DNA from: Candidatus Uhrbacteria bacterium
GTDB lineage: Bacteria; Patescibacteriota; Patescibacteriia; UBA9934; GWF2-40-263
Direction of reading: 5' to 3'
Length of the DNA: 64,000 bases
Assembly: GCA_016844925.1 (NCBI GenBank)
Contig: JAERTI010000038.1
Coordinates: forward strand, 2,936 to 66,935
In this document: piece by piece, positions 1,381 through 36,057 of the stretch
How positions within the stretch are numbered: position 1 is the stretch's first letter
How the letters are laid out: the number at the start of each line of letters is the position of its first letter
Position numbers and translations under genes: made by a program
Notes under the pieces: model-generated
Told to the model about the DNA's origin: nothing
The model's input: only the letters and a program-made list of their open reading frames with translations
Databases searched by the model: none

Positions 1381-1417
1381 GGTTGGTGGTAGGTGCTAAC
1401 CCTCACGACCCGTCAGG
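1381..1417. repeat. partial or degenerate copy C of the AACCCTC palindrome family (ggttggtggtaggtgctaaccctcacgacccgtcagg)
   Basis: Shares the ggttggtg..taaccctcac 5' part and the gtcagg 3' end with copies A and B; the central part appears deleted. Confidence 0.5.
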
Positions 1418-1765: not shown

Positions 1766-2527
1766 CTAGCTGGCGGCGGCCTCGGGGGCCTGCTCGTCCG
1801 CGTCGGTGGCCACGATGGGCTCCTCGGCGTCCGGGACGGGGGTGGCGGCGGCGTCGGCCTGCGCCTGCGCCTCCTTCTTGGCGGCGCGGTCGGCCTTGTC
1901 CTCGCCCATGGCGGCCTCGAACTGCTCCAGGAACTTCGCGCGGGGCTCGGCCGGGATGGTGTTCTCGGCGAGCCAGCGGAAGAGGCGCAGGTTGCGCCGG
2001 ACCAGCCGGGGCAGGTCCTTCTGGTGCAGCTCGCCCTTGCGGGGGGCGTTGAAGCCCGGGACCATCCAGCTGAGCAGGACCTCGGTCGCCTTGGGGCCCA
2101 GGCGCATGGGGCGGCCGGGGTTGCGGCCGCGCAGGAGCAGGGTGTCGGCGTCCTCCTTGCTGACGTCCTCGGCCCGGGCGTTCTGGCGGTCCTCGCGGTT
2201 GGCGTCCTTGAGCTCCTTGCAGAAGCCCTTGAACTGCTGGTCGCGCACCTTGGGGTTGCGGATGCGCTGGGCCAGCTCGACCTTCTTGGTCATCACGCCC
2301 ACCTCCATCATGCCGATGGCGGTGTGGACGCTGCCGGTCGCGAAGGTGAACAGCTCGCCGTACTGCTCGTCGTTGAGGCCGAACCAGTCCGCGTAGGTCG
2401 AGACGGCGATGCCGAGCTCGTTCTGCGTGGGCGGGAGCGGCCGACGGGTCTGCTGCGGGCGCTTGCCCTTGGGGTTCTTGGGGACGCTGCGGCGGGTCGG
2501 GACGGCGATGCGGTTGTCGGTGGTCAT
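1766..2527 (-). CDS. hypothetical protein (253 aa), basic N-terminus, Ala/Glu/Pro-rich C-terminus
   Basis: Complete ORF with AAGGAG 7 nt upstream of the ATG at 2527 (reverse strand). The long antisense ORFs on the + strand were rejected. Confidence 0.6.
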   Translation of the reverse strand: MTTDNRIAVPTRRSVPKNPKGKRPQQTRRPLPPTQNELGIAVSTYADWFGLNDEQYGELFTFATGSVHTAIGMMEVGVMTKKVELAQRIRNPKVRDQQFKGFCKELKDANREDRQNARAEDVSKEDADTLLLRGRNPGRPMRLGPKATEVLLSWMVPGFNAPRKGELHQKDLPRLVRRNLRLFRWLAENTIPAEPRAKFLEQFEAAMGEDKADRAAKKEAQAQADAAATPVPDAEEPIVATDADEQAPEAAAS

Positions 2528-2769
2528 GGTCAGTCTCCTTCAAGACGTCTTTCTAGATGTTCGTCACACGGACTGGGCTGCGGATGCAGCTCAGGACCTT
2601 CCGTGTCATCTAGATACCTGCGGCTGGCAGGTGAGTGGTGTAGAACATGGGATGAGTCAACTCGCCGACGATAGGCGAGTGTAGGTAGAAGATGTATCCC
2701 TCACGAAGGATCAGCGTGTGATCTTCCGTGAGGGATCCTCGACGCGAGCGGTGCGTCGAGGGCTCCTGA

Positions 2770-2904
2770 TCAGTTGCCGAGGGCGCCGCCGATGACGTCG
2801 ATCGCAGGCATGGCCTGCAGGATCGACGTTCCACCGATGCTGCCCATGAGCAGCGCGGGGCCGCACAGGGCGATGATCAGAAGCAGCTTGAGCCTTTTGC
2901 TCAT
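2770..2904 (-). CDS. small hydrophobic peptide (44 aa: MSKRLKLLLIIALCGPALLMGSIGGTSILQAMPAIDVIGGALGN)
   Basis: Not in the ORF track (<60 aa). Reverse-strand ATG at 2902-2904 with GGAGG 5 nt upstream. Good GC3 bias. Signal-peptide-like N-terminus and a Gly-rich tail. Confidence 0.45.
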   Translation of the reverse strand: MSKRLKLLLIIALCGPALLMGSIGGTSILQAMPAIDVIGGALGN

Positions 2905-3132
2905 GGGTGCCTCCTGGTTGATTCCCTAGAAGGTCACAAGTAGAACTTATGAACTTGTAGGGATGGACGACGCAGTTCTCGCGTTGAGTGTGAACTACGT
3001 CGCCCCGTCCTGGTGCCTTCTCGGCATGGAGGCTCTGCTTCCTCTAGGCTCACCAGTACGTAGGTGACAACGTGCACGTTTTATGAAGCTAGACTTGCTT
3101 CAACCCACTGTCATGGGATCTGGTTGTTGGTC

Positions 3133-4551
3133 CTACCGCAGGGGCAGGCCCAGGCTCCGACGCAGGTCGTTGGCCGTCTCCATCTTGGGGGCCTCCTCCT
3201 GCCGGCGCATCTCCCGCTGCTTCCACGCCAGGTGGTTCTTCTGGCGCTGCTGACCCTGGTGGACCAGGCGGCCGATCTGGCGGAGCGGCACCGTGTGCAG
3301 CAGGTTCTTGGCCTCGGCCTCCCACACGGGGATGGCCTTGTCCTTGAGCTCCTGCACGGTGGTGCGGTGGGTGCCGGCGGCGTCGTGGAGGCTCGTCCAC
3401 TCCAGCTCCGTCTTCTGCCGCTTGCTGTACAGCTCGCGGAAGGTCCGGGCGTCGGCGGCGCTGAGCTGCACCACGAAGCGGGTCGACCGGTGGCCGTCGC
3501 GGATGATGGGGTTGGTGCCGCCGAGGCTGGTCTCCCAGCGCTCGAGCTGCTCCATCATCCGGTCGCGGGTCTCCGTGAAGGAGAAGGACCGCATCCGCTT
3601 GTTGTGGTGACCCTTGATCCGGACGACCTTGTGCAGGTGCCAGACCTCCACGTGCTTGCTGTCCAGGGCCCGCTTGATGTCGGCGAACCCGGGGACGCGA
3701 GCGGAGGTCTCGAGGACCCGCTGACCGCAGCCGCAGCTGCAGATCAGCGCCAGGCCGTGCGGGGTCTCCACGCGGCCGAGCCAGTCGGCGCCGGCGGGGC
3801 GGGTGGCCGTGACAGCGGCCGGGTTGTTGGCGCGATCCGCGCGCCGGCGGCGGGGCGGGATGCCCTTGGTCGGCTTGCGGGCGGCCTCGACCTTGGCCTG
3901 GAGCTCGCCCGCCTCGTCGAAGAGGCGGTCGAAGCCGTAGTCGGCGGGGTTCTCACCCAGCTCGATGACGGCGTCCACGGCGGTCTTGATGACCCCGATG
4001 ACCTCCGGCCCGGACTCGGCGACCTTGGAGGCGCTCAGGCCGTGCACCTTCACCAGCTCGTGGCTGGCGAACGCGAGCACGAGCTCGTGCGCCTCGACGA
4101 CGGACTCGACGGCCTGGGGCGAGCGGCAGGTCTGGCCGTTGACGACGACGTGGAAGTCGCTCGCCTCGTGCCAGCTGTCGTCGTACTCGGGCTCCTCGAA
4201 GTCGGTCTCCAGCTCCACGGGGGCGCTGTCGAACTCGAGCTCGCTGTCCTCGTCGTCGAAGTCGACCCAGTCCTGGTCGTCCTCGTCGCCGGAGTCCATC
4301 TCGCCCTCGCTCGACCAGTCCCGCGCCATCATGGAGGTGATGAAGTCCTCGGTGATGGTCTCGGCGGTGGCGAAGTTCGAGCCGTAGTGGCTCAGCCGCG
4401 CCCGCTCCTGGGCCATGTCGTCCGAGCTCACCAGGCCGAGGTTCTCCAGCGCCATGTCGTCCCAGTCCGGCGAGTTGGCGTCTCCGATGATGGGGAGGCC
4501 GTACTCGTCGAGGTGGAGCTCGCGGGCGCTCTCGGTGCTCAGGTTCAGCAT
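3133..4551 (-). CDS. hypothetical protein (472 aa) with a very acidic N-terminal half and a CSCGCG cysteine cluster
   Basis: Complete ORF. GAGAGGA precedes the ATG at 4551 (reverse strand). DE-rich segment DSGDEDDQDWVDFDDEDSELEFD, then ICSCGCGQRV, then a basic C-terminus. Confidence 0.6.
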   Translation of the reverse strand: MLNLSTESARELHLDEYGLPIIGDANSPDWDDMALENLGLVSSDDMAQERARLSHYGSNFATAETITEDFITSMMARDWSSEGEMDSGDEDDQDWVDFDDEDSELEFDSAPVELETDFEEPEYDDSWHEASDFHVVVNGQTCRSPQAVESVVEAHELVLAFASHELVKVHGLSASKVAESGPEVIGVIKTAVDAVIELGENPADYGFDRLFDEAGELQAKVEAARKPTKGIPPRRRRADRANNPAAVTATRPAGADWLGRVETPHGLALICSCGCGQRVLETSARVPGFADIKRALDSKHVEVWHLHKVVRIKGHHNKRMRSFSFTETRDRMMEQLERWETSLGGTNPIIRDGHRSTRFVVQLSAADARTFRELYSKRQKTELEWTSLHDAAGTHRTTVQELKDKAIPVWEAEAKNLLHTVPLRQIGRLVHQGQQRQKNHLAWKQREMRRQEEAPKMETANDLRRSLGLPLR

Positions 4552-4859
4552 GTGTCAGTCCTCTCGACGTCTCGCGACGTCAGTGCAGTGCGCCCACCCG
4601 CTGGTGAGCAGGGGGTGGGGAAGGTTTCCGCTTGCTCTCGCTTGCGGAAGTCAGGGGGGTAGGGGTTGTGATGTGCTCGTTTCTCGGAAGACGTTGCACA
4701 GTCGCTTGAGAGGTGACTCTCAGTCGGCTGTGCAGCATCTTCGTCCTGCAGAGGGACTCAAGCATGGATGAGTCTCTCTGGTGGACGGACGAGAGCAGCG
4801 GCGTAGCGGCTCTCGTCAAGTTGTGCCCTCGAGGTGTCCATGCTCGAGAGTCCCGTCGC

Positions 4860-5033
4860 CTACCCCAGGAAGGGGATGGCGAGGGCGAGCACGGGGACGC
4901 CGGCGACGATCGCGAGTCCGCCGACGTCGACGCGGAAGGCGGCGGCGCGGGCGATGGTCTCGGTGTCGTCGGTGCTGTAGTTGGGGTTGACGACGCAGCG
5001 GGCGAAGGCGAGGGCGGTGCGGATGGCGTTCAT
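4860..5033 (-). CDS. small hydrophobic protein (57 aa: MNAIRTALAFARCVVNPNYSTDDTETIARAAAFRVDVGGLAIVAGVPVLALAIPFLG)
   Basis: Not in the ORF track (<60 aa). ATG at 5031-5033 (reverse strand) preceded by AGGAG. GC3 bias. Hydrophobic C-terminus. Last gene of the left high-GC block. Confidence 0.45.
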   Translation of the reverse strand: MNAIRTALAFARCVVNPNYSTDDTETIARAAAFRVDVGGLAIVAGVPVLALAIPFLG

Positions 5034-15670: not shown

Positions 15671-17563
15671 TTACTTCTCGTAGGGGTTGTCGTAGTCGTC
15701 GTCACCGACATCGAAGATGGTCGGGACGTTCATGGTCGCCGAGAGCGACATCACGAACGCGGACGAGTCCGTTCCCTCTGCGGAAGTGATCACGTAGAAG
15801 GGGAACTTCTGCGCCTTCACTTGGGTTTCACCCATGAAGTCGACATCGAAGGTTTTGCCCAGACCAGGGAGTTCTTGGATGTGGGGAACCTTCGAGGCGT
15901 CCAGGCCGATGCTCGAACCTTCCGGCATGGGGAAGTTCTTCAAGGCACCTTCAGCGCGAGCGCTGAGGTTCATCGCCTCACCGTTGGTGACGGGGAGGGC
16001 CCTGATGCCGGTCTCATCCGCGGGGATGGTGTAGGTCACCGTCGGTCCGACGGAGATACCGATGCGAACAGGCTTCTCGAGGCTGTCCGCCAGCTCGGCG
16101 ATTTGCAGGGCGGCCTTGATGGCCATGGAGAGTCGCAGGTTCAGACTCATGCCTCGGCACTTGCCCAAGGCGCTCATCCAGACACACACGCAGCCGTCGC
16201 CGGTGAAGTTGTTGTACTTCCCGCCTTCCTTGAGGACGATCTGGTTGATGCCCGTCATGAAAGGTTGCATGAACTGGCCGACCTTGATGGGGTCGTCCAG
16301 CGTTGCCGACCAAGCGGTGAAGCCGACGATGTCCACGGTCATGGCGACCGTTTCTTCATCCGCCACCAGCGGGTTGTAGCCCGCCTGAACCCTTGCAAAG
16401 AACTCTGGGTCCGGGTGAACGGTCCTGGCGATGGCGCGCAAGATGGCGGCCTCGCGGGCCGTCTTTGCGGCCTGCATGGAGCGTCCCGTTGCCTGGCGTT
16501 CCTTCGTCCAGGTCTGCTCGTAGTCGCCCTTGCCGGTCAGGCGCTTGGCGTTGGGGATCAGTGCGGCGAGACGGTCGCCCAGGGTGCGGTTCCACTTGAC
16601 GGTCAGGACCGTGCGCAGGAACGGGGACTGGGCGTCATCGATCTGGTAGATCTCGCCCGCGTGCACGACGGGGAGCTGTTTGAGCTCGCCTTCCCGCACG
16701 ATCTTGTTGGGCGTGAGGATGTCCTTCTCGATGCGGATGCCGCGGACAGAGCCCGAGGGGGTGTCCGAGTAGTCTCCGTTGCAGGAGCCATCCTCGTCGA
16801 TCTTCAGCCAGACCAGTCGTCCGTAGATCTCACCGTCGATGATGAGCGTCTTGCCGTTCCAGTGAACCTCCTTCTCAGGGGCCCACATCTTCAGCAGGGG
16901 GACGATGGGGAGTTCCACGAGCCGGTACTTGACCGTCCCTTCGTCACGTCCGGGCAGGATGCCGGGCATGGCTTGGTTCATCCCGCGGATCAGGTGCAGG
17001 AGCGCCGGAGCGTCCTGCAGACGGTTGACCACCTTGTTCTGGGGGCCGCCAGGGTTGTAGACGCAGACGAGGCGGACTTCGCACTCGCCGATCCGGTAGG
17101 CGTACCAGGACTTGTTGGTGTTCCACGCGGCAGCACCTTCTTGGAGCTTCTGGTAGAGCACCCAGGGGCTGAGCATGAATCCGAGGAATCCGGCAAGCAG
17201 TCGTTCGATGGCGTCGAAGCCGAAGTTGATGTCCGGCGACGCACGGCCGATGAAGGACAGCTTGGAGACGTGCCCCAGCTGCTCGTCGACGATCTTGCTG
17301 ATGAGCTTGTCGTACTGCTCCAGCGTGATGTGGTCACTGTCATCCAGCATGGACGAGACGCTCTTGCCCTTGAGCTTGTCCGGAAGGTTGTCCCAGATCA
17401 CCTGACTCGAGAGCTGGAGCCTCTTGAGACCAACCATCAGAAGTCGAATGTTCCGTGCTGCGTTGATGGAGAGCCACTGCCTGATGGCCTCCATTTCTGC
17501 AACGTCCGTTCTCTTGTACCCGACAGACGTCAGGGTATCGATGCGCTGAGTGCGATCACCCAT
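15671..17563 (-). CDS. class III nucleotidyl (adenylyl/guanylyl-type) cyclase domain protein with a roughly 420-aa uncharacterised N-terminal region; high GC
   Basis: C-terminal catalytic motifs in canonical order: metal-binding Asp in TVDIVGFT, second Asp in NFTGDGCVCVW, VRIGISVGPTVTYTI, transition-state Asn/Arg in NGEAMNLSARAEG. Start placed at the ATG 17561-17563 (reverse strand) with GGAGG 6 nt upstream; the track's TTG start at 17638 is unlikely. Ends in a bidirectional hairpin region (15613-15668). Confidence 0.75.
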   Translation of the reverse strand: MGDRTQRIDTLTSVGYKRTDVAEMEAIRQWLSINAARNIRLLMVGLKRLQLSSQVIWDNLPDKLKGKSVSSMLDDSDHITLEQYDKLISKIVDEQLGHVSKLSFIGRASPDINFGFDAIERLLAGFLGFMLSPWVLYQKLQEGAAAWNTNKSWYAYRIGECEVRLVCVYNPGGPQNKVVNRLQDAPALLHLIRGMNQAMPGILPGRDEGTVKYRLVELPIVPLLKMWAPEKEVHWNGKTLIIDGEIYGRLVWLKIDEDGSCNGDYSDTPSGSVRGIRIEKDILTPNKIVREGELKQLPVVHAGEIYQIDDAQSPFLRTVLTVKWNRTLGDRLAALIPNAKRLTGKGDYEQTWTKERQATGRSMQAAKTAREAAILRAIARTVHPDPEFFARVQAGYNPLVADEETVAMTVDIVGFTAWSATLDDPIKVGQFMQPFMTGINQIVLKEGGKYNNFTGDGCVCVWMSALGKCRGMSLNLRLSMAIKAALQIAELADSLEKPVRIGISVGPTVTYTIPADETGIRALPVTNGEAMNLSARAEGALKNFPMPEGSSIGLDASKVPHIQELPGLGKTFDVDFMGETQVKAQKFPFYVITSAEGTDSSAFVMSLSATMNVPTIFDVGDDDYDNPYEK

Positions 17564-17609
17564 CCGTTGCCTCCTTTGTAAAGGGCACGCCATTGATTGG
17601 CGATGTGGT

Positions 17610-21541: not shown

Positions 21542-22315
21542 ATGTTCAAGCACTTGTTTCCCGTACTCTTGTTCCCCCTCATTCTTCTTGGCGCCGGTTG
21601 TGCACCAGAGCCAGTAGTAGAGGTGGAGACTACAGAAGAGGAGGAGGCTGCTGTCCTATTGTTGGACGGAACGTACGACCTAGTCGTGGAGGAGAGTGTT
21701 GTTACCTGGGAGGGATCTAAAGTTGTTGTTGAGACAACGCATAATGGAACCGTTAACGCCGATAGTGGTCGTTTGACTGTTGAGGGAGGTGAAGTTACTG
21801 GAGGGACGGTGACGGTTGATATGGCAACCATCAAGAGTCTCGATTTGGATGAGGCTGGTGGAGCAAAGCTCGATGGTCACTTGAAGTCAGCAGATTTCTT
21901 TGGTGTGGCAACACATCCAGCGGCAACGTTTACCATCACAAGCGTTGATGGAAGCGCTGTCACAGGAACCATGACGATCAAGGGTATTGATCGAGAGGTG
22001 AGCTTCGACGCTGATATTGAAGCTGAGGGAGCAGAGATTGGCCTTGAGGCTACACTCGAGCTTGACCGAACGCTCTGGGATGTCCGTTATGGATCAGATA
22101 CATTCTTCGATGAGCTAGGTGACGCTGTTATTAGCGACACATTCACCATTGGGCTCGACCTTGAGTTCTTGAACCCAGACGCACCAGTTGTCGTTGAAGA
22201 GGCTGGAGACGCTGAGGGTGAAGAGGATGCAGAAGAGGTTGAGGCTGAGGGAGATGCCATGGAAGCCGGAGAAGGTGAAGAGATGGCTGAAGAGGGTACC
22301 GAGCTCGCTGAATAA
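21542..22315 (+). CDS. YceI-like domain lipoprotein with an acidic C-terminal tail
   Basis: Signal plus lipobox LLGAGC. YceI-like segment (KSADFFGVATHPAATFTITSV...). Terminator at 22332-22356. Confidence 0.6.
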   Translation: MFKHLFPVLLFPLILLGAGCAPEPVVEVETTEEEEAAVLLLDGTYDLVVEESVVTWEGSKVVVETTHNGTVNADSGRLTVEGGEVTGGTVTVDMATIKSLDLDEAGGAKLDGHLKSADFFGVATHPAATFTITSVDGSAVTGTMTIKGIDREVSFDADIEAEGAEIGLEATLELDRTLWDVRYGSDTFFDELGDAVISDTFTIGLDLEFLNPDAPVVVEEAGDAEGEEDAEEVEAEGDAMEAGEGEEMAEEGTELAE

Positions 22316-22331
22316 ACTTGAACTGAGACAA

Positions 22332-22356
22332 AACGAGGTCGATTGACCTCGTTTTT
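22332..22356 (+). terminator. rho-independent terminator after the YceI-like gene
   Basis: aaacgaggtcgattgacctcgttttt. Confidence 0.8.
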
Positions 22357-22412
22357 GTTTTCCGATACCCTCTGCCGTTGCCGACAGTTTCGGTGATGAG
22401 AAGGAGAACATC

Positions 22413-24428
22413 GTGAGTTATGCACTGATCACGGGTGGCGGAACGACTGCCCCCGTGGATGTGATTCGCTCCATGGCCAACAGTGCCAAGGGAAGCTTCG
22501 CCATCGAGTTCGCACAGCAGTTTCAGCGTCGCGGTGTTCCTGTGGTGCTGGTGCTTTCCAAGGTGGCCAACGCCTTCAACGGCAGCCGGATCCCCAAGGG
22601 GGTCGAGGTGCTGCTCTACGAGACCTACGACGACTACATCCGCACCATCGCCTGCCTGCTCTCGCGGCGAGGTCAGCCGGCCTATGCGCTCAGCGCGGCG
22701 GCTGTGAGCGACTTCGGGAAGCTCGAGCCGGTGGTGGGCAAGATCAGTTCCGGTGGCAAGCTCACCCTCGAGCTCGATCCGCTCCCCAAGGTACTGGACA
22801 GCTGGCGCCCTCAGATGGGCAAGGCCTGCACGATCGTCGGCTTCAAGCTGATGAGCGCGCAGACATCCACGGTGGCGCAGGTGCTCGCGGCCGCGCGCAA
22901 GCAGAACAAGCGGGCGCGGTTGAACATGACCCTTGCCAACATCAAGGAGGAGATCACCGGTGGGATTCACCCTGTCTGGATGGTCACCCCCGACGGCGGC
23001 ACGGTTCGCATCGACGGCTACGCCGACGAAGTGGCACGGCAGGTGGTGGATCACATCATCCGCATCCACTACACGACGTGGCACCGAAGCGTGCGTCAGG
23101 GCGCTTTCGAAGAAGCGAGAGTGAGTTCGGGGGTGCTGGAGGAGCTTGCTTCGCCGATCATCGAGCTGGCTCAGCGGGTGGGGTTGCTCACGGATGCGTC
23201 CGGGAACATCTCTGTCTGTGACCCTGGGGTCGACGAGACCTTGCTGGTTTCGCCTCGTGGCGTCGACAAGTCGAAGTTGCGTGCCCGGGACATGGTGGTC
23301 GTTCAGCTGGGTGACGCGGGAGATCATGTGGTCCGTTGGTGGGGCAAGCAGGGAACCAAGCCCTCCATCGACACATCGGTGGTGCTGACCCTCAAGGGGC
23401 AGCTCAAGCCGTTCCAGGCCTCTCTGCACTTCCATGATGGCTGGGTTCTCGGCGACATCCCGCGCACGCGCCTGGCGTACCCCTGCGGAACGCTGGAGCA
23501 AGCCGCGGTGATCCGGGAGGCGGCGGCGAGCTTCCCGCGAAGGGCGTACTTCTGTCCCAACAAGCGGGGCCACAGCCTGATGATTGAGCTGCGCGACCAT
23601 GGACACATCCTGTTCGTGCACGAGCTGCGGACGTTGGTTCGTCGGCTTTCTCGCGAGTGGGATGCGGTCCTCAGCGCGTATCGACAGCACCTTGCTGACA
23701 TCGGTCGCGAGGACTTCATGGAGCGCATTCGTGTTCAGCCCATCTGGCTCGTCAACGAGATCATCGGTCTCACGGCAGAACTCGACGGCAACCGCTCCTT
23801 CTACTTGCTGGAGACCGCTCGCGGTAAGGGCCTGGGTGAGCAGCTCATCGAGCTGATCTACAGGCGCGGCCAGCAGGTCGTCGCTCACGACGGCTGCGGT
23901 GTGGCAGACTTCTACCGCCGCCGCGGATTCCGAACGGTCGAGCGCATCGAGGAAGAGGGTCTGACGGTCCTCGAACCGCCGACGCTTCGTCAGGACCTCA
24001 TCGACGCGACGACGGTCACGTTCCACTGCACCACGACGGATCGAGTGCTGCTCATCCAGCGCGGAGAGGGAACGACCTATCCCGAGTGGTGGGCCAACCC
24101 TGGCGGCCGAGATGATGAGGGTGATCGCAACCCTGTCGCCACGGCCGTGCGTGAGGGGCTCGAGGAGATCGGTGTGGACTTCACGGGGCTTCCGGATCCG
24201 GACAGGATCACGGTGCACTACACCGGCTGGGTGAACCCCAAGGCTCCTCAGCAGGAGCGCGGCTACCGGGTCAAGCACCTGGTGGTCCCGGTCGTGATCG
24301 AGTTCGAGCCGCATCCCGACGGCAGTGAGGTCACCGACGCGCAGTGGTCCTCCAAGGACGAGGCGCGCGAACGAAAGATGGGGCCCGCCACGCGCGCGAC
24401 GCTCCGCAAGATCTGGTCGGACTTCTAG
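22413..24428 (+). CDS. four-domain fusion protein: CoaB-like (phosphopantothenate--cysteine ligase-like) / class II aldolase-adducin-like / GNAT-like / NUDIX hydrolase; high GC
   Basis: N-terminus ITGGGTTAPVD...SAKGSFA...DFGKLEPVVGKISSGGKLTLEL follows the CoaB pattern. Middle SGNISVC, LVSPRGV, HFHDGW, RDHGHILF follow the FucA/AraD pattern. Then ARGKGLGEQL (GNAT-like). C-terminal Nudix box GGRDDEGDRNPVATAVREGLEEIGV. GTG start at 22413 with AAGGAG upstream. Confidence 0.7.
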   Translation: MSYALITGGGTTAPVDVIRSMANSAKGSFAIEFAQQFQRRGVPVVLVLSKVANAFNGSRIPKGVEVLLYETYDDYIRTIACLLSRRGQPAYALSAAAVSDFGKLEPVVGKISSGGKLTLELDPLPKVLDSWRPQMGKACTIVGFKLMSAQTSTVAQVLAAARKQNKRARLNMTLANIKEEITGGIHPVWMVTPDGGTVRIDGYADEVARQVVDHIIRIHYTTWHRSVRQGAFEEARVSSGVLEELASPIIELAQRVGLLTDASGNISVCDPGVDETLLVSPRGVDKSKLRARDMVVVQLGDAGDHVVRWWGKQGTKPSIDTSVVLTLKGQLKPFQASLHFHDGWVLGDIPRTRLAYPCGTLEQAAVIREAAASFPRRAYFCPNKRGHSLMIELRDHGHILFVHELRTLVRRLSREWDAVLSAYRQHLADIGREDFMERIRVQPIWLVNEIIGLTAELDGNRSFYLLETARGKGLGEQLIELIYRRGQQVVAHDGCGVADFYRRRGFRTVERIEEEGLTVLEPPTLRQDLIDATTVTFHCTTTDRVLLIQRGEGTTYPEWWANPGGRDDEGDRNPVATAVREGLEEIGVDFTGLPDPDRITVHYTGWVNPKAPQQERGYRVKHLVVPVVIEFEPHPDGSEVTDAQWSSKDEARERKMGPATRATLRKIWSDF

Positions 24429-24436
24429 TCTGGCAC

Positions 24437-24461
24437 CCCCGCCACAAAAGCGGGGTTTTTT
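24437..24461 (+). terminator. rho-independent terminator after the fusion gene
   Basis: ccccgccacaaaagcggggtttttt. Confidence 0.8.
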
Positions 24462-24528
24462 GATTGATGTTGGTTGACATGAGGGTGTTCGTGTATTATG
24501 AAGAGTGAGCATCCAACCTGGAGGGATC

Positions 24529-25350
24529 ATGCACATGCGTTCTTTGCTCTTGCCTTTCTGCCTCTTCGCTCTGGTGAGCTGCACGCCGCCGGACGCCGAG
24601 GATCCGTTCGTGAAGTCGGACGACAGCGACAACACCGGCACCGTCGAAGACTCCGACGACGGAGATGGCGGTGGTGACACGGACGACGACGACAGCGCCG
24701 AGCCGGTCGACGAAGACGGTGACGGGTACAGCCCCGATCTGGACGACCAGGACTGCGACGACAGCGACGACACGATCTACCCGGGCGCGCCCGAGGTCTG
24801 CGGCGATGGCATCGACCAGGACTGCGACGGTTCGGATCTCGAGTGCGAAGAGAAGACCGGTGAGTGGAGCGCCATCGTGTGCGAGATGGAGCACAGCTGG
24901 TTCCGCGACGACGAGATCGAGTGGGAGATCGAGTGGTACGAGGATCGTGGTGGTGACGACCCCCTCGAGGTGGGCGTCGCCTTCAACTACCTCATGGAGG
25001 AAGACCAGCTCATCCAGGCCGACGCCTACACGGTGACCTGGCCCACGCACTACGAGAGCCTCGAGTCCTACCCCGTCTACGACGGCGAGGTCGACTACGA
25101 CGGTCAGCCCCTCAACTTCACCAGCTTCCGCATGGAGTGGAGCGACCGGAGCGAGCCCCAGCCGGGCCTCTACGACTTCTTCGACGCCGCGGGCAACATG
25201 ACCCTCAGCCCCGGAGACGTCGTCTCCTTCGCCATGTGGTCCTGGAGCGACTACGACGGCGAGCCCGTCTACCTCCACTGGACCATCAACGAGTACGGCA
25301 TGGAGGACTACTACGGGACCTGCTACCTGACCTGGTCCACCGAGGAGTAG
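24529..25350 (+). CDS. Asp-rich lipoprotein with a MopE-type (Myxococcus-type) cysteine-rich putative metal-binding motif; high GC
   Basis: Signal plus lipobox MRSLLLPFCLFALVSC. Motif DEDGDGYSPDLDDQDCDDSDDTIYPGAPEVCGDGIDQDCDGSD. GGAGG 4 nt upstream of the ATG at 24529. Confidence 0.65.
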   Translation: MHMRSLLLPFCLFALVSCTPPDAEDPFVKSDDSDNTGTVEDSDDGDGGGDTDDDDSAEPVDEDGDGYSPDLDDQDCDDSDDTIYPGAPEVCGDGIDQDCDGSDLECEEKTGEWSAIVCEMEHSWFRDDEIEWEIEWYEDRGGDDPLEVGVAFNYLMEEDQLIQADAYTVTWPTHYESLESYPVYDGEVDYDGQPLNFTSFRMEWSDRSEPQPGLYDFFDAAGNMTLSPGDVVSFAMWSWSDYDGEPVYLHWTINEYGMEDYYGTCYLTWSTEE

Positions 25351-25364
25351 CCTCACGGCCACGC

Positions 25365-28972: not shown

Positions 28973-30526
28973 TTGACTCAAGTCATTCTTCTACTCGGAG
29001 CTGCTGGGTGTGGCAAGACCACGCTCATCGGCAGCATCGTTCGCAACTTCGGAGGCGATCGATCGATCGCGGTCGTCTTCAACGACGACGGGGATCCCGA
29101 GGCCACCGATCTGCCCGACGATCTCGGGCGGTTCGCCGACATCACGTCCATGACAGCAGGGTGCTTCGGATGCACCGATTCGACGGCCTTCCTGGAGTGC
29201 ATTCAGGCTCTCCAGGAGCAGGTGCCGGCACTCGACGTCATTCTGGTGGAGCCCGTGGGTTTCACCGATGCACAAGAGATGCTCGACACGCTGGCCGAGA
29301 TCCATGTGATCCCGACGGTGGTCGCACTGGTGGATGCGGCGCATCACGCACACAACCTGAAGCTGGGTACGACCGAAGGTCACGTTTTGGCCGCCGACTG
29401 CACGCTGGTCACCAAGATCGACGCTGCGGACACGAGCATGAACGTGGTCTCCTGGTCCCAGGAGCGCTGTTCGGATGTCCGGGTCTTCCGGGCTGACGAC
29501 GTCTTCGACCCGGCGACCATCAGGTTGCCAGCGCATGCGCATCATCACGACTGCGGCCACGATCACGTGCACGGCGAATCGTGCGATCACCACCATCATC
29601 ATGACGATGGTCATCATGACCATCACCACAGCCACGGACATTCCCACGGACATGTCTGCACCTTCCATGCGCGACTCGCGTCGGAGGTGAATGTCGACAC
29701 GGTCAGGGGAGTGCTCGAAGATCACCCACTGGTGCTCCGAGCCAAGGGGCTCGCTTCCAGCGGACGCTTCAGCATGGTCCAGGGGAGCTGGGACATCTCG
29801 GAGGATAGTCCGGGAGTCAGCTTCATTACCTTCTACACCGCGCCCGGCGACAGTGTCGCTGGTGAGGCGTGCCTCGAGGCCTTGCGACCGCACTACGCGG
29901 TTGGGTCCGGAGGATTGAAGGGGACGATGGCCGCCATGCGCGGAGATACCGACGTGGAGGTGGTCGAGTACCAGCTCGATGTCTGTCGCCGCAAGCCGCT
30001 GACCTTCTCCGCAGGGCATCCGGTGCCCAGTCCGGAGTGGCTCGAGGTGCTGATCCTGCTGCGACATCGGCCGGGAGTCCCTGAAGACCTGAAGCTCGCG
30101 TGTGAGGAGGTGTATGTCAATCACTGCCTCGCGTGCGCGCGTTGGTACATGGACAATCCTGGTCGCGATGGTGAACCTGTTGCCACGGCGCGCATCCACG
30201 ACATCGCCGTCGGTCTGGGGTGGTTCGTGAACAAGAACGCTGAGAGTCTGCGTCCGGAGGTGGTTCGGGAAGCCGAGCGCATCCCGGTTGCCGGCTGGCT
30301 GCGAACCTCCCTCCTGGCCCGTACGCGGATCAGTCCCAACCGGGACAAGGAGCTGGTCATCGCAGAGGACGTCGCTGTCAGTGCCGCCTGGGCACTGCGC
30401 GTCGGTCAGACTCCCCAGGACCTCAAGAGCGCCTGGGATCACAACCGGCGTCTGGCTGAGGCCTCTGGCGACGCCACGGCTGTCGAGGCCTGGGTCGCAT
30501 CCTGGGAGACGGTCGCCTCCGCGTGA
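28973..30526 (+). CDS. divergent COG0523/G3E-family P-loop GTPase (CobW/ZigA-like metallochaperone) with a His-rich tract and a long C-terminal extension; high GC
   Basis: Walker A GAAGCGKTT at residues 9-17. The family's usual CxCC becomes GCFGC. His-rich stretch HAHHHDCGHDHVHGESCDHHHHHDDGHHDHHHSHGHSHGH. TTG start at 28973 with GGAGG 5 nt upstream; the in-frame ATG at 28892 lies in low-GC sequence with no RBS. Confidence 0.7.
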   Translation: MTQVILLLGAAGCGKTTLIGSIVRNFGGDRSIAVVFNDDGDPEATDLPDDLGRFADITSMTAGCFGCTDSTAFLECIQALQEQVPALDVILVEPVGFTDAQEMLDTLAEIHVIPTVVALVDAAHHAHNLKLGTTEGHVLAADCTLVTKIDAADTSMNVVSWSQERCSDVRVFRADDVFDPATIRLPAHAHHHDCGHDHVHGESCDHHHHHDDGHHDHHHSHGHSHGHVCTFHARLASEVNVDTVRGVLEDHPLVLRAKGLASSGRFSMVQGSWDISEDSPGVSFITFYTAPGDSVAGEACLEALRPHYAVGSGGLKGTMAAMRGDTDVEVVEYQLDVCRRKPLTFSAGHPVPSPEWLEVLILLRHRPGVPEDLKLACEEVYVNHCLACARWYMDNPGRDGEPVATARIHDIAVGLGWFVNKNAESLRPEVVREAERIPVAGWLRTSLLARTRISPNRDKELVIAEDVAVSAAWALRVGQTPQDLKSAWDHNRRLAEASGDATAVEAWVASWETVASA

Positions 30527-34846: not shown

Positions 34847-35037
34847 TGGGTTGTGTTGAGATACAACCCAGTTTCAACCTACCTCTACAAGTTATTCCCA
34901 GAACACCATCGGTGAAAGCCGGCGGTTTTTTGTATTTATACAGTATGCCTTGCTAACAACCCTAGAGGCTGTTAGGGTACTTGTCCTCGTTAAGCAAACG
35001 TCCTTTTTGGCGTGCTGACTAGGTAGAGGAGGAATAC

Positions 35038-35925
35038 TTGAAGCTTCAATTCGTCCTGGGGGCTCATGACCCTGAAATGGATTGTATTGAATCGATTCTC
35101 CAGAGTTTGTCCGTCCCGTGTGTGTACGCCATGAGAGGTGCTCGACGAGTGCTCCCTCACCAGGCGTACCAGGTTGATGGGCTCTCAAAGCCGCTCCCCA
35201 GCGACCGTCCGACCTGCTGGGTAGAGTGCCTTCCGGAGACGAGTGAGTCAGCGCTCCTTCCAGGCGTCACGGCATATGCCGACCATCACGGCGAGCATCC
35301 CTGCGCCAGTGCGCCACCGGAACGTTTCTTTGAAGCGAGCAGTCTCGGGCAGGTCATTGGGATCCTGCGGGACACGTCTGCCATCGGTGAGGACTGGGGC
35401 ATCACTGAAGCACTGTTGTTCGAGGCGGCAAATGATCACTGCAAGTGGTCTGCCGCTTCAGGTGAGTGTCCGGGCGTTGACCCTGAGCGATTCATCGTTT
35501 GGGTGACAGGCCGGTACGCTGAATTCAACAATTGGGACCCCGTTGAATTTGCCGAGGATGTGGCGCGGGCCACGAACTTGATTGAAAAGGCTCCAAGGGT
35601 CCCATGGCTCCCTGGAGATATTGCCGACTTGTCTGCGGTTCCGCTCCCGGAACAACCGTGTGAGAGCGGTCCCTACATCCAGGGGCTCCACTACGCGACG
35701 CACATTGCGTGCATGAAGGCACGTAGGGCCTGCGTCGTCACGGCGATGCGCAAGGCGGATGGGTGTTCGGGCCTGCAGCTCAATGGCACAGGAGCGGAAA
35801 CGCCTGCTGGCAAGAGGCCCGTCGAAGTGTTCCTGAAGTATTGGGAGAAACGAGGCTTCGCGGCTCCCGATCTCTATGGAAACTCTGACCGCGGATACGC
35901 GGGGGTGTGGTTTACCTGCACTTAG
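35038..35925 (+). CDS. putative metal-dependent hydrolase (DHH-phosphoesterase-like or LmbE/PIG-L-like motifs); high GC
   Basis: FVLGAHDPEMDC near the N-terminus and YADHHGEHP about 85 aa later. No DHHA1 GGGH motif. TTG start with GGAGG upstream. Confidence 0.45.
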   Translation: MKLQFVLGAHDPEMDCIESILQSLSVPCVYAMRGARRVLPHQAYQVDGLSKPLPSDRPTCWVECLPETSESALLPGVTAYADHHGEHPCASAPPERFFEASSLGQVIGILRDTSAIGEDWGITEALLFEAANDHCKWSAASGECPGVDPERFIVWVTGRYAEFNNWDPVEFAEDVARATNLIEKAPRVPWLPGDIADLSAVPLPEQPCESGPYIQGLHYATHIACMKARRACVVTAMRKADGCSGLQLNGTGAETPAGKRPVEVFLKYWEKRGFAAPDLYGNSDRGYAGVWFTCT

Positions 35926-36057
35926 CCCCACGCAAGAGGTTACGTAACCTCTTTTTTTATTTTCTTAGATCAAGTTATTTAGAGTTGCGTATATTTTGTC
36001 TGGGTTTATACTGTCAGTATTAAGCTGATTCATTAATGTAAGTAACCAGCAAAATAT

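What the first reader, a model, noticed from the sequence alone, without database searches (positions are those of the whole stretch)
22413..24428. Unusual four-domain fusion: CoaB-like ligase, class II aldolase-like, GNAT-like, NUDIX
Motif reading places a CoaB-type domain (ITGGGTT...SAKGSFA...DFGKL..VGKISSGGKLTLEL), an AraD/FucA-like class II aldolase fold (GNISVC, LVSPRGV, HFHDGW, RDHGHI), a GNAT-like acyl-CoA motif (ARGKGLGEQL) and a canonical Nudix box in one 671-aa polypeptide. All four can act on CoA, pantetheine or nucleotide-diphosphate substrates. This suggests an enzyme that makes, edits or recycles a CoA-like or nucleotide-linked small molecule. I do not recall seeing this architecture described. 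It is one of the high-GC inserts.
Basis: partly seen in the sequence, partly recalled or inferred. Interest (0 to 1): 0.75.

Follow-up and report, generated by a model that had tools for sequence, protein, structure and literature searches.

The report
Four-domain CoaB-family fusion enzyme
A bacterium of the candidate phyla radiation encodes one 671-residue protein that joins a coenzyme-A-pathway ligase (CoaB) to an aldolase-like metal domain, a small acetyltransferase-like domain and a Nudix hydrolase; this layout recurs in many uncultured bacteria and giant phages, has never been studied, and probably belongs to coenzyme A or pantetheine metabolism.

Summary
ORF 22413..24428 (+) is a real, monocistronic 671-aa gene. 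It has a Shine-Dalgarno site and terminator-like hairpins on both sides.

All four domains are supported:
- CoaB/DFP: Pfam E 1e-20, Foldseek TM 0.75-0.84.
- Nudix: Pfam E 8e-13.

It is not an assembly artefact. About 45 relatives at 30-50% identity share the domain order. The aldolase-like/GNAT module occurs in about 157 clusters, nearly always after a CoaB domain. The core is CoaB, aldolase-like, GNAT; Nudix is optional (27 of 44).

The host is a CPR bacterium. NUDIX-less versions occur on huge-phage-like contigs.

In three distinct lineages a CoaC decarboxylase gene lies directly beside the gene. A TrmB-like regulator (9 loci) and a special M23-like protein also recur.

Best reading (about 0.45): a monofunctional-type phosphopantothenate-cysteine ligase with an added metal and CoA-binding module and a nucleotide hydrolase. 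What the aldolase-like, GNAT and Nudix domains do is unknown.

I found no literature on it. I rate it a new variant of a known kind, of moderate to high interest.

The parts
22330..22355 (+). Terminator-like hairpin ending the upstream YceI-like gene. It separates that gene from the target gene.
   Evidence: 11-pair stem followed by a T-run. Sequence read.
22401..22406 (+). Shine-Dalgarno sequence aaggag, 6 nt upstream of the GTG start.
   Evidence: Read directly from the sequence.
22413..24428 (+). Complete coding sequence: 671 aa plus stop, GTG start.
   Evidence: An identical 671-aa protein, P0001, is in the database on a 226,880-bp contig.
22413..23075 (+). Domain 1 (aa 1-221): CoaB/PPCS-type ligase of the acyl-nucleotide-forming Rossmann-like fold. 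Motifs: G9-G10-T11, D16, R19, N23, G27; A96-A97-V98-S-D100; G109-K110-I-S-S113; P125-K126; V142-G143-F144-K145; N176.
   Evidence: Pfam DFP E 9.8e-21. Family profile against the PDB sequence set: 2gk4 E 2.8e-36, 5int 1.7e-30, 4qji 7e-29, aligned end to end. Foldseek top 50 hits are all CoaB/PPCS, target-normalised TM 0.75-0.84 for the CoaB-only bacterial chains and about 0.44-0.59 for longer PPCS/CoaBC chains. Conservation.
23076..23708 (+). Domain 2 (aa 222-432): trimmed class II aldolase (AraD/FucA-like) fold with a candidate metal site, followed by a long linker helix (405-429). Conserved residues: G264-N265, P281-R282, K286, K316-P-S318-I-D320, H339-x-H341, P357-C358-G359, H396-G397, H426.
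23709..23993 (+). Domain 3 (aa 433-527): small GNAT-fold domain with the CoA pyrophosphate-binding loop R470-G-K-G-L-G475, an invariant Y501 in the alpha4 'xFYxxxGF' position, and invariant C495.
23994..24425 (+). Domain 4 (aa 528-671): MutT-like Nudix hydrolase. The box reads G565-x5-D571-x8-R580-E581-x2-E584-E585-x-G587-V588.
   Evidence: Pfam NUDIX E 8.4e-13. PHROG 1198 MutT/NUDIX E 2.3e-9. PDB sequence hits to MutT, NudG, DIPP and Ap4A hydrolases at E about 1e-10. Foldseek against BFVD gives target-normalised TM up to 0.78 to phage Nudix proteins.
24437..24465 (+). Terminator-like hairpin (CCCCGC...GCGGGG plus T-run) 9 nt after the stop codon. The gene is monocistronic.

Best explanation
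The gene encodes one multifunctional enzyme of an uncharacterised but widespread family. The family's obligatory core is a CoaB-type ligase domain, a trimmed AraD-like metal domain and a small GNAT domain. Here, as in about 60% of members, a MutT-like Nudix hydrolase is added. It most likely works in the phosphopantothenate to phosphopantetheine segment of coenzyme A synthesis or salvage.

Step 1 (best supported; inferred from intact motifs and gene neighbourhood). The N-terminal domain activates a carboxylate, most probably 4'-phosphopantothenate, with CTP or ATP as an acyl-nucleotide. It then joins the amino group of cysteine, as monofunctional (streptococcal or eukaryote-type) PPCS does.

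Step 2 (inferred from neighbourhood in relatives, not in this window). The cysteine adduct is decarboxylated by a separate CoaC flavoprotein.

Step 3 (inferred, weak). The aldolase-like and GNAT domains form one rigid module. It offers a His3/Asp-type metal site, a phosphate pocket and a CoA/pantetheine-binding cleft. The module either senses CoA and acyl-CoA to throttle the ligase, or carries out a further metal-dependent or acyl-transfer step on the phosphopantothenoyl product. It may also serve as the oligomerisation scaffold that CoaC provides in classical CoaBC.

Step 4 (inferred, weak). The Nudix domain hydrolyses a nucleoside-diphosphate-linked compound or an NTP connected with the ligase reaction or with CoA turnover.
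For: Shown:
- All four folds are present.
- The CoaB motifs are conserved across 44 members: the Gly-rich GGTxxPxDxVRxxxNxSxG with the Asn equivalent to E. coli N210 (from my own knowledge), the AAVSD Asp equivalent to M. smegmatis D281 (PMC7794376), the first Lys of the K-x-K-K loop, VGFK and AN(D).
- The nearest solved relative is the monofunctional S. pneumoniae protein 2gk4. It shares the K-I-S-S loop variant.
- A CoaC-like gene (NCBIfam coaC_strep E 3.9e-37, coaBC_dfp N half E 7.4e-39) lies directly beside NUDIX-less family members in three lineages no more than 39% identical to each other. It is downstream with a 4-bp overlap or a 2-bp gap in L005/L006 and L040. It is upstream by 23-31 bp in L046/L050.
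- The aldolase-like/GNAT module is found almost only downstream of a CoaB domain: 157 clusters, with the module starting at residue about 220-260. This indicates obligatory functional coupling.
- Candidate metal ligands D320, H339 and H341 align to AraD D76, H95 and H97 (ligand roles from my own knowledge) and are invariant, as is H396-G397.
- The GNAT pyrophosphate loop and Y501 are conserved.
- CoaB is known to be inhibited by CoA thioesters and to need a partner domain for dimerisation in mycobacteria (PMC7794376). This makes a CoA-sensing or scaffolding add-on plausible.
- More distant stand-alone CoaB-like genes in phages and metagenomes are almost always followed by a CoaC-like gene. They are sometimes preceded by TANGO2, a reported CoA/acyl-CoA binder (PMC13044924), or fused to a Rossmann-like+DUF2520 domain pair.
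Against: - No CoaC, CoaD, CoaE, pantothenate kinase or other CoA-pathway gene was recognised near the gene. My local CoaC, TrmB, M23 and TANGO2 models found nothing in the 64-kb window.
- CoaC adjacency holds for only 3 of about 14 NUDIX-less lineages and 0 of about 11 NUDIX-fused lineages, including this one.
- The K-x-K-K triphosphate loop is reduced to K-I-S-S.
- The distribution is patchy (CPR bacteria, other uncultured bacteria, huge phages), and the gene is 9-12 GC points richer than its flanks in five related genomes. That looks more like an accessory than a core pathway gene.
- On phage-like contigs the neighbours are ADP-ribosylglycohydrolase, Nudix, a T4 PNK-like kinase, RNA ligase, and a directly coupled protein with a weak NadD/PPAT-like half. 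This fits NAD or RNA-repair themes as well as CoA.
- The Nudix domain lacks the CoA-pyrophosphatase signature.
- Nothing explains why a metal-binding aldolase fold is needed.
- CoA synthesis from pantothenate is reported only in some CPR groups (PMC9166423).
Confidence: 0.45

Rival explanations
1. It is a biosynthetic enzyme for a different, non-CoA small molecule. The aldolase-like domain would make or tailor a phosphorylated hydroxy-carbonyl acid. The CoaB-like domain would ligate cysteine or another amine to it, and a CoaC-like enzyme would decarboxylate it where present. The GNAT domain would N- or S-acylate the product, and Nudix would remove a nucleotide handle. The result would be a new cysteine- or cysteamine-containing thiol, cofactor or signal.
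For: - All three extra domains keep catalytic-type residues rather than decaying: candidate metal ligands, the GNAT loop and Tyr, and the Nudix REx2EE.
- A sugar-regulator-type TrmB gene lies divergently upstream in 9 loci.
- A dedicated M23-like partner recurs in CPR and phage loci.
- The distribution is patchy and the gene's GC is atypical for its genome.
Against: - No candidate product is known.
- No other biosynthetic genes recur in the neighbourhood.
- The CoaB domain is no more divergent from true PPCS than true PPCS types are from one another.
- The CoaB plus CoaC pairing is exactly the classical CoA activity.
Confidence: 0.25
2. It acts in nucleotide, NAD or ADP-ribose metabolism as part of phage-host conflict. 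The Nudix and aldolase-like domains would process ADP-ribose or a ribulose/ribose phosphate. The CoaB-like domain would act as a nucleotide-dependent ligase in that pathway.
For: - The NUDIX-less version sits on huge-phage-like contigs next to ADP-ribosylglycohydrolase, a separate Nudix, a T4 PNK-like kinase, RNA ligase 1 and Tad4.
- A conserved 431-465-aa partner directly downstream has a GSFNPxTxxH ... SSTxxR half that is collinear with NaMN adenylyltransferase, at a weak E of 0.078.
- The best sequence match of the aldolase-like domain is L-ribulose-5-phosphate 4-epimerase.
- L005 also carries ADP_ribosyl_GH and an Apyc1-like gene within 6 kb.
Against: - PADLOC gives no defence-system hit beyond a weak Nudix match.
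- The cellular copies sit among housekeeping genes, with CoaC as the recurrent enzyme neighbour.
- The adenylyltransferase-like match is sub-threshold and fits PPAT motifs equally well.
- No NAD-pathway gene lies in the window neighbourhood.
Confidence: 0.12
3. It modifies a peptide or protein rather than a small molecule. The CoaB-like domain would add cysteine to a C-terminal carboxylate. A CoaC-like (HFCD) enzyme would decarboxylate it, as in lanthipeptide-type pathways. The M23-like protein would bind or cleave the peptide.
For: - A specific M23-like domain is fused to the CoaC-like protein in at least 8 phage loci. It also lies next to the four-domain gene in Uhrbacteria-type genomes, at E 1e-25 to 1e-35 between the two sets.
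- HFCD enzymes include peptide-cysteine decarboxylases. NCBIfam gives a weak CypD hit, E 2.6e-6, for the L005 CoaC.
Against: - No precursor-peptide gene was seen.
- The adjacent flavoprotein scores far better as CoaC (E 1e-37 to 1e-39) than as a RiPP decarboxylase.
- No CoaB-family enzyme is known to act on peptides (my own knowledge).
- The window has no M23-like gene.
Confidence: 0.05
4. It is an artefact: a frameshifted or chimeric join of separate genes, or the real gene is the 876-aa ORF on the opposite strand.
For: A longer ORF (22143..24773, minus strand) overlaps the whole gene. High-GC segments often create such ORFs.
Against: - The identical protein occurs on other contigs, and about 45 orthologues keep the same four- or three-domain order at 30-50% identity.
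- The model has pLDDT 92.9 and pTM 0.88.
- The Shine-Dalgarno site and flanking terminators fit the plus-strand gene.
- The minus-strand translation is low-complexity Ser/Pro/Arg-rich sequence.
Confidence: 0.01

Closest known systems
Monofunctional phosphopantothenate-cysteine ligase (CoaB/PPCS) of streptococcal or eukaryotic type, for example S. pneumoniae PDB 2gk4 and human PPCS 1p9o/7edz
   Same: - Same fold over the whole 220-residue domain (Foldseek target-normalised TM 0.76-0.84; profile E down to 2.8e-36).
- Same Gly-rich nucleotide loop with the Asn, the same AAVSD Asp, the same VGFKL and AN(D) motifs, and the same K-I-S-S variant of the flap loop.
- In three lineages it is encoded next to a separate CoaC gene, as monofunctional CoaB genes are.
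   Different: - Here the ligase is only the first third of the protein. It is always followed by an aldolase-like/GNAT module, and often by Nudix.
- No activity data exist.
- The window copy has no CoaC neighbour.
Bifunctional CoaBC (Dfp) of most bacteria
   Same: It is also a fusion protein built around CoaB, in which the partner domain organises the oligomer and takes the ligase product (PMC7794376).
   Different: - In CoaBC the partner is the FMN-dependent CoaC decarboxylase, placed N-terminal to CoaB, and the flap loop is K-x-K-K.
- Here the partners are C-terminal and unrelated (class II aldolase fold, GNAT, Nudix). There is no flavoprotein domain, and the loop is K-I-S-S.
Class II aldolase/adducin superfamily (AraD L-ribulose-5-phosphate 4-epimerase, FucA, MtnB, OtnC/YgbL and HMPDdc decarboxylases)
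   Different: - Only about 150-165 of about 210-230 residues superpose.
- Sequence similarity ends after HxH.
- The stretch between HxH and the following PxG[ST] turn is roughly 20 residues shorter than in the canonical member P0073 (my reading). In FucA this stretch carries the catalytic Tyr (my own knowledge).
- There are extra invariant residues: R282, K286, C358 and H426.
- It occurs almost only fused after a CoaB domain (rare CoaB-less forms: L058/L059, L106).
GNAT acyl-CoA N-acyltransferases, for example E. coli YjaB 2kcw and plant serotonin N-acetyltransferase 7dai
   Different: - It is very short (about 95-120 residues), and the N-terminal arm is replaced by the linker helix of the aldolase-like domain.
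- It scores below the Pfam gathering threshold in this protein.
- The acceptor substrate is unknown.
- It might only bind CoA (a regulatory role).
MutT-type Nudix NTP pyrophosphohydrolases (MutT, NudG CTPase, DIPP/Ap(n)A hydrolases)
   Same: It has a Nudix fold and the catalytic R-E-x2-E-E core, with the upstream WxxPGG typical of MutT-like members.
   Different: - The box has one extra residue and Asp for the first Glu in this clade.
- The domain is fused to the C-terminus of a ligase.
- Specificity is unknown.
- The CoA-pyrophosphatase (NuCoA) signature is absent.
Stand-alone CoaB-like plus CoaC-like(-M23) gene pairs of large phages
   Same: They share the CoaB-like ligase, and the same special M23-like domain family appears as a partner.
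   Different: - The phage pairs lack the aldolase-like/GNAT module and always have a CoaC-like gene.
- Their CoaB-like proteins are only about 25-33% identical to the family's N domain.
- As far as my searches show, they are undescribed as well.

Membership tests
CoaB / PPCS (phosphopantothenate-cysteine ligase; Pfam DFP PF04127) | DFP-type Rossmann-like fold over the whole domain | tested here: met
   Pfam E 9.8e-21, above the gathering score. Family profile E 2.8e-36 to 2gk4, aligned over residues 3-217. Foldseek target-normalised TM 0.75-0.84, and the top 50 hits are all CoaB/PPCS.
CoaB / PPCS | N-terminal Gly-rich nucleotide loop G-G-T-x-x-P-I-D-x-V-R-x-I-x-N-x-S-S-G, including the Asn needed for the second half-reaction (E. 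coli N210; my own knowledge) | tested here: met
   G9, G10, T11, D16, R19, N23 and G27 are conserved in at least 90% of 44 members and align to the motif in 2gk4, 5int, 4qji and 1u7u.
CoaB / PPCS | AAV(A/S)D(Y/F) motif, whose Asp coordinates the cation with the triphosphate (M. smegmatis D281; PMC7794376) | tested here: met
   A96-A97-V98-S99-D100-F101. D100 is invariant.
CoaB / PPCS (bacterial type I) | K-x-K-K flap loop contacting the CTP triphosphate (PMC7794376) | tested here: not met
   The loop reads G109-K110-I-S-S113, so only the first Lys is kept. The same K-I-S-S is present in the monofunctional S. pneumoniae protein 2gk4. This argues against type I membership, not against PPCS in general.
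CoaB / PPCS | Genomic or physical coupling with CoaC (PPCDC) | tested here: inconclusive
   A CoaC-like gene is adjacent in three lineages of relatives (L005/6, L040, L046/50). It is absent from all 11 or so NUDIX-fused loci and from the 64-kb window.
CoaB / PPCS | Catalysis of 4'-phosphopantothenate + cysteine + CTP/ATP to phosphopantothenoylcysteine | not testable with these tools
   This needs an enzyme assay or genetic complementation.
Class II aldolase / AraD-FucA superfamily (Pfam PF00596) | Aldolase_II fold | tested here: met
Class II aldolase / AraD-FucA superfamily | Divalent-metal site of one Asp/Glu plus three His | tested here: inconclusive
   D320, H339 and H341 align to AraD D76, H95 and H97 and are invariant. 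The third His is assigned to the invariant H396-G397 only by motif position (AraD H171-G; my own knowledge). Model coordinates could not be inspected.
Class II aldolase / AraD-FucA superfamily | Complete C-terminal half, with the acid/base residues supplied across the tetramer interface (FucA Y113, AraD D120/Y229; my own knowledge) | tested here: not met
   Sequence and profile alignments stop after HxH. Only 150-165 residues superpose. The segment after HxH is about 20 residues shorter than in the canonical member P0073 (my reading). I therefore do not file it as an aldolase or epimerase, only as a member of the fold.
GNAT acetyltransferases | GNAT fold with the beta4-alpha3 CoA pyrophosphate-binding loop (Q/R-x-x-G-x-G/A) | tested here: met
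GNAT acetyltransferases | Score above the curated family threshold | tested here: not met
   The window protein scores 24.2 bits against 27 for Acetyltransf_7. Other family members pass, with a best E of 3.8e-9, and 27 of 44 hit at E no higher than 0.01.
GNAT acetyltransferases | Acyl-CoA-dependent acyl transfer | not testable with these tools
   This needs binding and activity assays. The domain could be a CoA-binding regulatory module.
Nudix hydrolases (PF00293) | Nudix box G-x5-E-x7-R-E-U-x-E-E-x-G-U | tested here: inconclusive
   The R580-E581-G-L-E584-E585-I-G587-V588 core is present and invariant in the close clade. The first part reads G565-x5-D571-x8, with one inserted residue and Asp for Glu. 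More distant members (P0003, P0029) have the canonical spacing. Pfam E is 8.4e-13.
CoA pyrophosphatase subfamily of Nudix (NudL/Nudt7) | Upstream NuCoA signature LLTxR[SA]x3[RK]x3Gx3FPGG (my own knowledge) | tested here: not met
   The sequence LLIQRGEGTTYPEWWANPGG does not fit the spacing or the required residues. The NCBIfam CoA pyrophosphatase model gives only E 0.0038, 16.8 bits, against a 134-bit cut-off.

The most novel reading that the evidence does not exclude
The aldolase-like/GNAT module is a previously unrecognised catalytic unit of pantetheine or CoA metabolism. It would be a metal-dependent enzyme that acts on the cysteine adduct made by the fused CoaB domain, held in the GNAT pantetheine cleft. 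It would either replace the flavin-dependent CoaC step or divert the intermediate to a CoA-like thiol. Together with the special M23-like protein, TANGO2 and a PPAT/NadD-like adenylyltransferase, it would define a new pathway variant shared by CPR bacteria and huge phages.
Probability: 0.15. Interest if true: 0.85.

Novelty: new variant of a known kind. Interest (0 to 1): 0.58.

Why it matters
Coenzyme A synthesis is regarded as a closed, five-step textbook pathway and is a drug target. Here a conserved family welds its second enzyme to three further domains that look catalytic. The family occurs in the metabolically minimal CPR bacteria and in giant phages. That points to an unknown regulatory or chemical step around phosphopantothenoylcysteine and phosphopantetheine, or to a new cysteamine-type metabolite.

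It would also help explain how organisms with fragmentary cofactor pathways obtain CoA, and why large phages carry CoaB/CoaC-like genes. The side observation that TANGO2 genes sit next to phage CoaB/CoaC-like pairs touches the unresolved question of TANGO2's biochemical role in CoA and acyl-CoA metabolism.

If the protein turns out to be only a decorated PPCS, the finding is a useful annotation for about 150 protein clusters now labelled 'hypothetical' or 'NUDIX domain-containing protein'.

Tried and rejected
- Artefact or frameshift: rejected on orthologue evidence.
- Minus-strand 876-aa ORF: rejected as a shadow ORF, since its translation is low-complexity.
- Riboswitch or other RNA element near the gene: Rfam finds only four tRNAs in the window.
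- Defence-system membership: PADLOC gives only a weak Nudix hit, PDC-S07 E 1.6e-5.
- CoA-pyrophosphatase identity of the Nudix domain: the signature is not met.
- Conserved operon in cellular copies: none beyond TrmB-like, CoaC-like and M23-like genes.
- Nudix fusion and CoaC adjacency as alternatives: 0 of about 11 against 3 of about 14 lineages. The numbers are too small to conclude anything.
- The phage AAA_33 neighbour as dephospho-CoA kinase: rejected, because it matches T4 polynucleotide kinase.
- The conserved 431-465-aa phage partner: no Pfam or NCBIfam hit. Its N half hits nothing in the PDB sequence set. My motif impression of a CinA-like N half is therefore unsupported.
- Literature searches for the architecture, phage CoaB/CoaC, CPR CoA synthesis and bacterial TANGO2 contexts found no description.
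P0001 is not on record in the contig index. The profile search with A5 returned only 3 new proteins. The afdb50 fold library was unavailable. Model coordinates cannot be inspected, so inter-domain geometry and a possible Cys/His zinc site (C358, H426, H492, C495) could not be checked.


Full report
**1. The observation**

The window holds an ORF at 22413..24428 on the plus strand. It has a GTG start and encodes 671 aa, as reported. A Shine-Dalgarno aaggag lies 6 nt upstream at 22401-22406. Terminator-like hairpins lie just upstream at 22330-22355, ending the YceI-like gene, and 9 nt after the stop at 24437-24455. The gene is therefore a separate transcription unit.

The longer ORF on the opposite strand (22143..24773) translates to low-complexity Ser/Pro/Arg-rich sequence. 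It is the usual shadow of a high-GC gene.

**2. The four domains**

Pfam gives four hits:
- DFP, residues 4-179, E 9.8e-21.
- Aldolase_II, 253-343, E 6.8e-10.
- NUDIX, 541-662, E 8.4e-13.
- Acetyltransf_7, 448-507, 24.2 bits, just below the 27-bit cut-off.

NCBIfam and PHROGs agree on the kinds of domain, but no equivalog cut-off is reached.

An AlphaFold2 model built on 44 family sequences is confident and compact, with pLDDT 92.9 and pTM 0.88. Foldseek against the PDB returns only CoaB/PPCS structures in the top 50. Target-normalised TM is 0.75-0.84 for the bacterial CoaB-only chains.

A profile of the GNAT-like region hits almost only GNATs in the PDB sequence set: 53 of 54 matches, best E 1.3e-4. 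It aligns the RGxGxG loop and the 'FY..GF' helix. The Nudix domain superposes on phage and giant-virus Nudix proteins.

GNAT is the weakest by sequence but is clear by structure.

**3. Not an artefact, and not unique**

A word-indexed search of 5.8 billion proteins found the identical protein (P0001, on a 226,880-bp contig) and about 45 relatives at 30-50% identity with the same order of domains. Beyond these, only ordinary CoaBC proteins appear, at E above 1e-9.

Across 44 aligned members, DFP is detected in 44, Aldolase_II in 42, NUDIX in 27 and Acetyltransf_7 in 27. About a dozen members in that search are 500-570 aa and simply end after the GNAT domain.

An exhaustive phmmer search was run with only the aldolase-like/GNAT module against 1.84 billion cluster representatives. 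It found 157 clusters at E no higher than 1e-3 and 94 at E no higher than 1e-10. In nearly all full-length hits the module starts at residue about 220-260 of a 500-690-aa protein, that is, right after a CoaB domain.

A metagenome scan plus local domain HMMs confirmed the two main architectures. It also revealed rare variants:
- Ald-GNAT-Nudix without CoaB (L058/L059).
- An aldolase-like ORF followed by a separate CoaB ORF (L106).
- CoaB-GNAT-Nudix (L056, L064).
- A two-domain CoaB/aldolase-like protein in a 595-kb uncultured phage (L037).

The evolutionary unit is therefore CoaB, aldolase-like and GNAT, with Nudix as a frequent add-on.

**4. Residue-level anatomy**

*CoaB domain.* The family keeps the Gly-rich loop (G9 G10 T11 .. 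D16 .. R19 .. N23 .. G27). It also keeps AAVSD (D100 invariant), G-K110-I-S-S113, P-K126, V-G143-F-K145 and N176. The domain aligns end to end with solved PPCS enzymes. D100 corresponds to the cation-binding Asp, and K110 to the first Lys of the K-x-K-K flap described for M. smegmatis CoaB (PMC7794376). The flap here is K-I-S-S, as in the monofunctional S. pneumoniae protein 2gk4, which is the best PDB match (E 2.8e-36).

*Aldolase-like domain.* The best sequence match is AraD (1jdi, E 1.9e-12). The alignment pairs G264-N265 with the GN motif, P281-R282-G with K-P-S-G, K316-P-S318-I-D320 with K-K-P-S-S-D76, and H339-x-H341 with H95-x-H97. The roles of these AraD residues as phosphate-pocket and metal ligands come from my own knowledge. 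H396-G397 is invariant and sits where the third His-Gly of the family lies; this is inferred from motif position. Sequence similarity ends after HxH, and the following segment is about 20 residues shorter than in a canonical family member (P0073). I therefore treat the domain as a trimmed member of the fold with a probable metal and phosphate site. I do not treat it as an aldolase or epimerase. R282, K286, C358 and H426 are additional invariant residues.

*GNAT domain.* R470-G-K-G-L-G475, Y501, C495 and G505 are conserved.

*Nudix domain.* The R580-E581-x2-E584-E585 core is invariant in the close clade. The box has one extra residue and Asp571 for Glu, whereas more distant members are canonical. 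The CoA-pyrophosphatase signature is absent.

**5. Host and setting**

The window is a cellular chromosome. Recognised genes include DNA polymerase III delta', GlyRS, M16 peptidases, an ABC-F protein, tRNAs, NDH-2, YceI and YaaA.

The best named relatives of its GlyRS are Candidatus Peregrinibacteria (72%) and Ca. Uhrbacteria (68%). The organism is therefore a CPR/Patescibacteria bacterium.

The relative that shares 79% GlyRS identity (the 186-kb contig of L011) has the four-domain protein at only 51% identity, so the family evolves fast.

The gene is 9-12 GC points richer than its flanks in the window and in four related genomes.

**6. Gene neighbourhoods**

Cellular copies show no long conserved operon. 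Three partners do recur.

*(a) CoaC.* A CoaC-like flavoprotein (NCBIfam coaC_strep E 3.9e-37) lies directly beside NUDIX-less members in three lineages no more than 39% identical to one another. It is downstream in L005/L006 (4-bp overlap) and L040 (2-bp gap). It is upstream in L046/L050. None of the 11 or so NUDIX-fused loci has it, and neither does the window.

*(b) TrmB-like regulator.* It lies divergently upstream in 9 loci.

*(c) M23-like protein.* A particular M23-like protein (H-T-G-V-D ... L-H-L-E) lies divergently upstream in Uhrbacteria-type genomes (L002/3/9, L010). It matches, at E 1e-25 to 1e-35, the C-terminal domain fused to CoaC-like proteins of large phages.

*Phage-like contigs.* On L004/L051, L007 and L013 the NUDIX-less gene is followed, with overlap in L004/L051, by a conserved 431-465-aa protein that has no Pfam hit. 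Its C half carries GSFNPxTxxH ... SSTxxR and is collinear with NaMN adenylyltransferase, at a weak E of 0.078. PPAT scores E 0.82. Further neighbours are ADP-ribosylglycohydrolase, a separate Nudix, a T4 PNK-like kinase and RNA ligase.

**7. Explanation**

The intact ligase motifs, the closeness to monofunctional PPCS and the repeated, tight pairing with CoaC in either gene order together make the CoA reading the best supported. On this reading the N-terminal domain makes a cysteine amide of a carboxylate, most simply 4'-phosphopantothenate, which CoaC then decarboxylates.

The strict coupling of the aldolase-like/GNAT module to CoaB implies that the module acts on, or is controlled by, something in that reaction. 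GNAT clefts bind the pyrophosphate-pantetheine arm of CoA. CoaB of mycobacteria is inhibited by CoA thioesters and needs its partner domain for dimerisation (PMC7794376). A sensing or scaffolding role, or a tailoring step on the product, are therefore the most economical ideas.

As pure inference, I note a structural parallel. The phosphopantoyl group (P-O-CH2-C-CH(OH)-C=O) has the same spacing of phosphate, hydroxyl and carbonyl as C5-C2 of L-ribulose 5-phosphate, the AraD substrate. It could therefore fit a phosphate pocket plus metal site of this kind.

The role of the MutT-like Nudix domain is open.

I put 0.45 on the CoA/phosphopantetheine-pathway reading. The rivals are a different cysteine- or cysteamine-containing metabolite (0.25), an NAD/ADP-ribose or conflict-related role suggested by the phage contexts (0.12), peptide modification (0.05) and artefact (0.01).

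**8. Comparison with what is known, and novelty**

Each domain belongs to a well-known superfamily. The architecture, and the family defined by the aldolase-like/GNAT module, appear undescribed. Database names are 'hypothetical protein' or 'NUDIX domain-containing protein', and six literature searches found nothing.

It is not a type I CoaBC, because it has no flavoprotein domain and no K-x-K-K loop. It should not be filed as an aldolase or epimerase, nor as a CoA pyrophosphatase.

I classify it as a new variant of a known kind. Interest is moderate to high, because it bears on an essential, supposedly complete pathway and links CPR bacteria with huge phages.

Noticed in passing
Loci L014-L034 (IMG/VR) and about 25 of L060-L121 (metagenomes): Large phages (contigs up to 435 kb) and many metagenome contigs carry a stand-alone CoaB-like ORF of 221-263 aa. 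A CoaC-like flavoprotein ORF lies next to it in nearly every case, all 21 of the IMG/VR loci included, usually directly downstream. In at least 8 phage loci the flavoprotein has a C-terminal Peptidase_M23-like domain, and in L015, L018 and L078 a separate M23-like ORF lies upstream. I found no description of this module.
   Followed up: partly
L027 9169-10020, L029 8179-8937, L031 8875-9582, L034 9271-9993: A TANGO2-family (PF05742) ORF sits immediately upstream of the phage CoaB-like/CoaC-like pair in four loci. TANGO2 is reported to bind CoA and acyl-CoA, and its biochemical role is unresolved (PMC13044924). The linkage may be informative for that question.
   Followed up: partly
L002/L003 6583-7218 (-), L009 8550-9185 (-), L010 8662-9291 (-): A roughly 200-aa M23-like protein (H-T-G-V-D ... 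L-H-L-E; the first His of the usual HxH is missing) lies divergently upstream of the four-domain gene in Uhrbacteria-type genomes. It is homologous, at E 1e-25 to 1e-35, to the M23-like domains fused to phage CoaC-like proteins. It is absent from the window.
   Followed up: partly
L005 5908-6702, L038 6037-6852, L040 5089-5877, L042 5007-5798, L043 4883-5656, L046 1917-2732, L050 3930-4745, L106 3948-4826 (all minus strand); L010 5700-6419 (+): A TrmB-family transcription regulator is encoded next to the family gene in 9 loci. It is usually divergently transcribed, which suggests dedicated regulation.
   Followed up: partly
L004 9505-10902, L051 7463-8860, L007 3868-5184, L013 4408-5703: A conserved 431-465-aa phage protein lies directly downstream of the NUDIX-less family gene, overlapping it in L004/L051. 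It has no Pfam or NCBIfam hit. Its C half has GSFNPxTxxH ... SSTxxR and is weakly collinear with NaMN adenylyltransferase (E 0.078) and PPAT (E 0.82). Its N half matches nothing.
   Followed up: partly
L111 6001-7497: A CoaB domain is fused to a Rossmann-like+DUF2520 pair, with a CoaC-like ORF 2 kb downstream. From memory, this domain pair is that of the PanG-type ketopantoate reductase. If so, this is a pantothenate/CoA pathway fusion.
   Followed up: no
window 1-64000; high-GC stretches at about 1-5000, 16000-17000, 22400-25000, 29000-30500, 35000-36000 and 48000-49000: The window has a strongly mosaic base composition: about 0.44-0.52 GC background with segments of 0.60-0.69. The target gene is one such segment. 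Its orthologues are likewise 9-12 GC points above their flanks in L001, L002, L010 and L011. Several high-GC ORFs have no Pfam hit (3064-4662, 15821-17581) and carry long antisense shadow ORFs.
   Followed up: partly
window 22143-24773 (-): An 876-aa ORF antisense to the whole target gene. Its translation is low-complexity Ser/Pro/Arg/Leu-rich sequence, and I consider it a non-coding shadow ORF.
   Followed up: partly
L010 (CAYRYG010000021.1), L011 (CAZIDX010000002.1): Two MAG contigs titled 'uncultured Gammaproteobacteria bacterium' carry the family gene. One of them (the 186-kb contig) also carries a GlyRS 79% identical to the window's CPR-type GlyRS. The taxonomic label is probably wrong.
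   Followed up: no
window 24505-25350 (+) and 24496-25362 (-): The gene downstream of the target encodes a 281-aa protein with a MopE-type Cu-binding motif (E 8e-12). It lies in the same high-GC segment, and a near-full-length antisense ORF overlaps it.
   Followed up: no
L058 5809-7167, L059 5863-7221; L106 4778-5992 and 5938-6636: Rare rearranged versions exist. One is an Ald-GNAT-Nudix protein with no CoaB domain, on 96- and 321-kb contigs. Another is an aldolase-like ORF with an unknown 200-aa N-terminal region followed by a separate CoaB ORF, on a 962-kb contig. These could serve as natural domain-deletion experiments.
   Followed up: no
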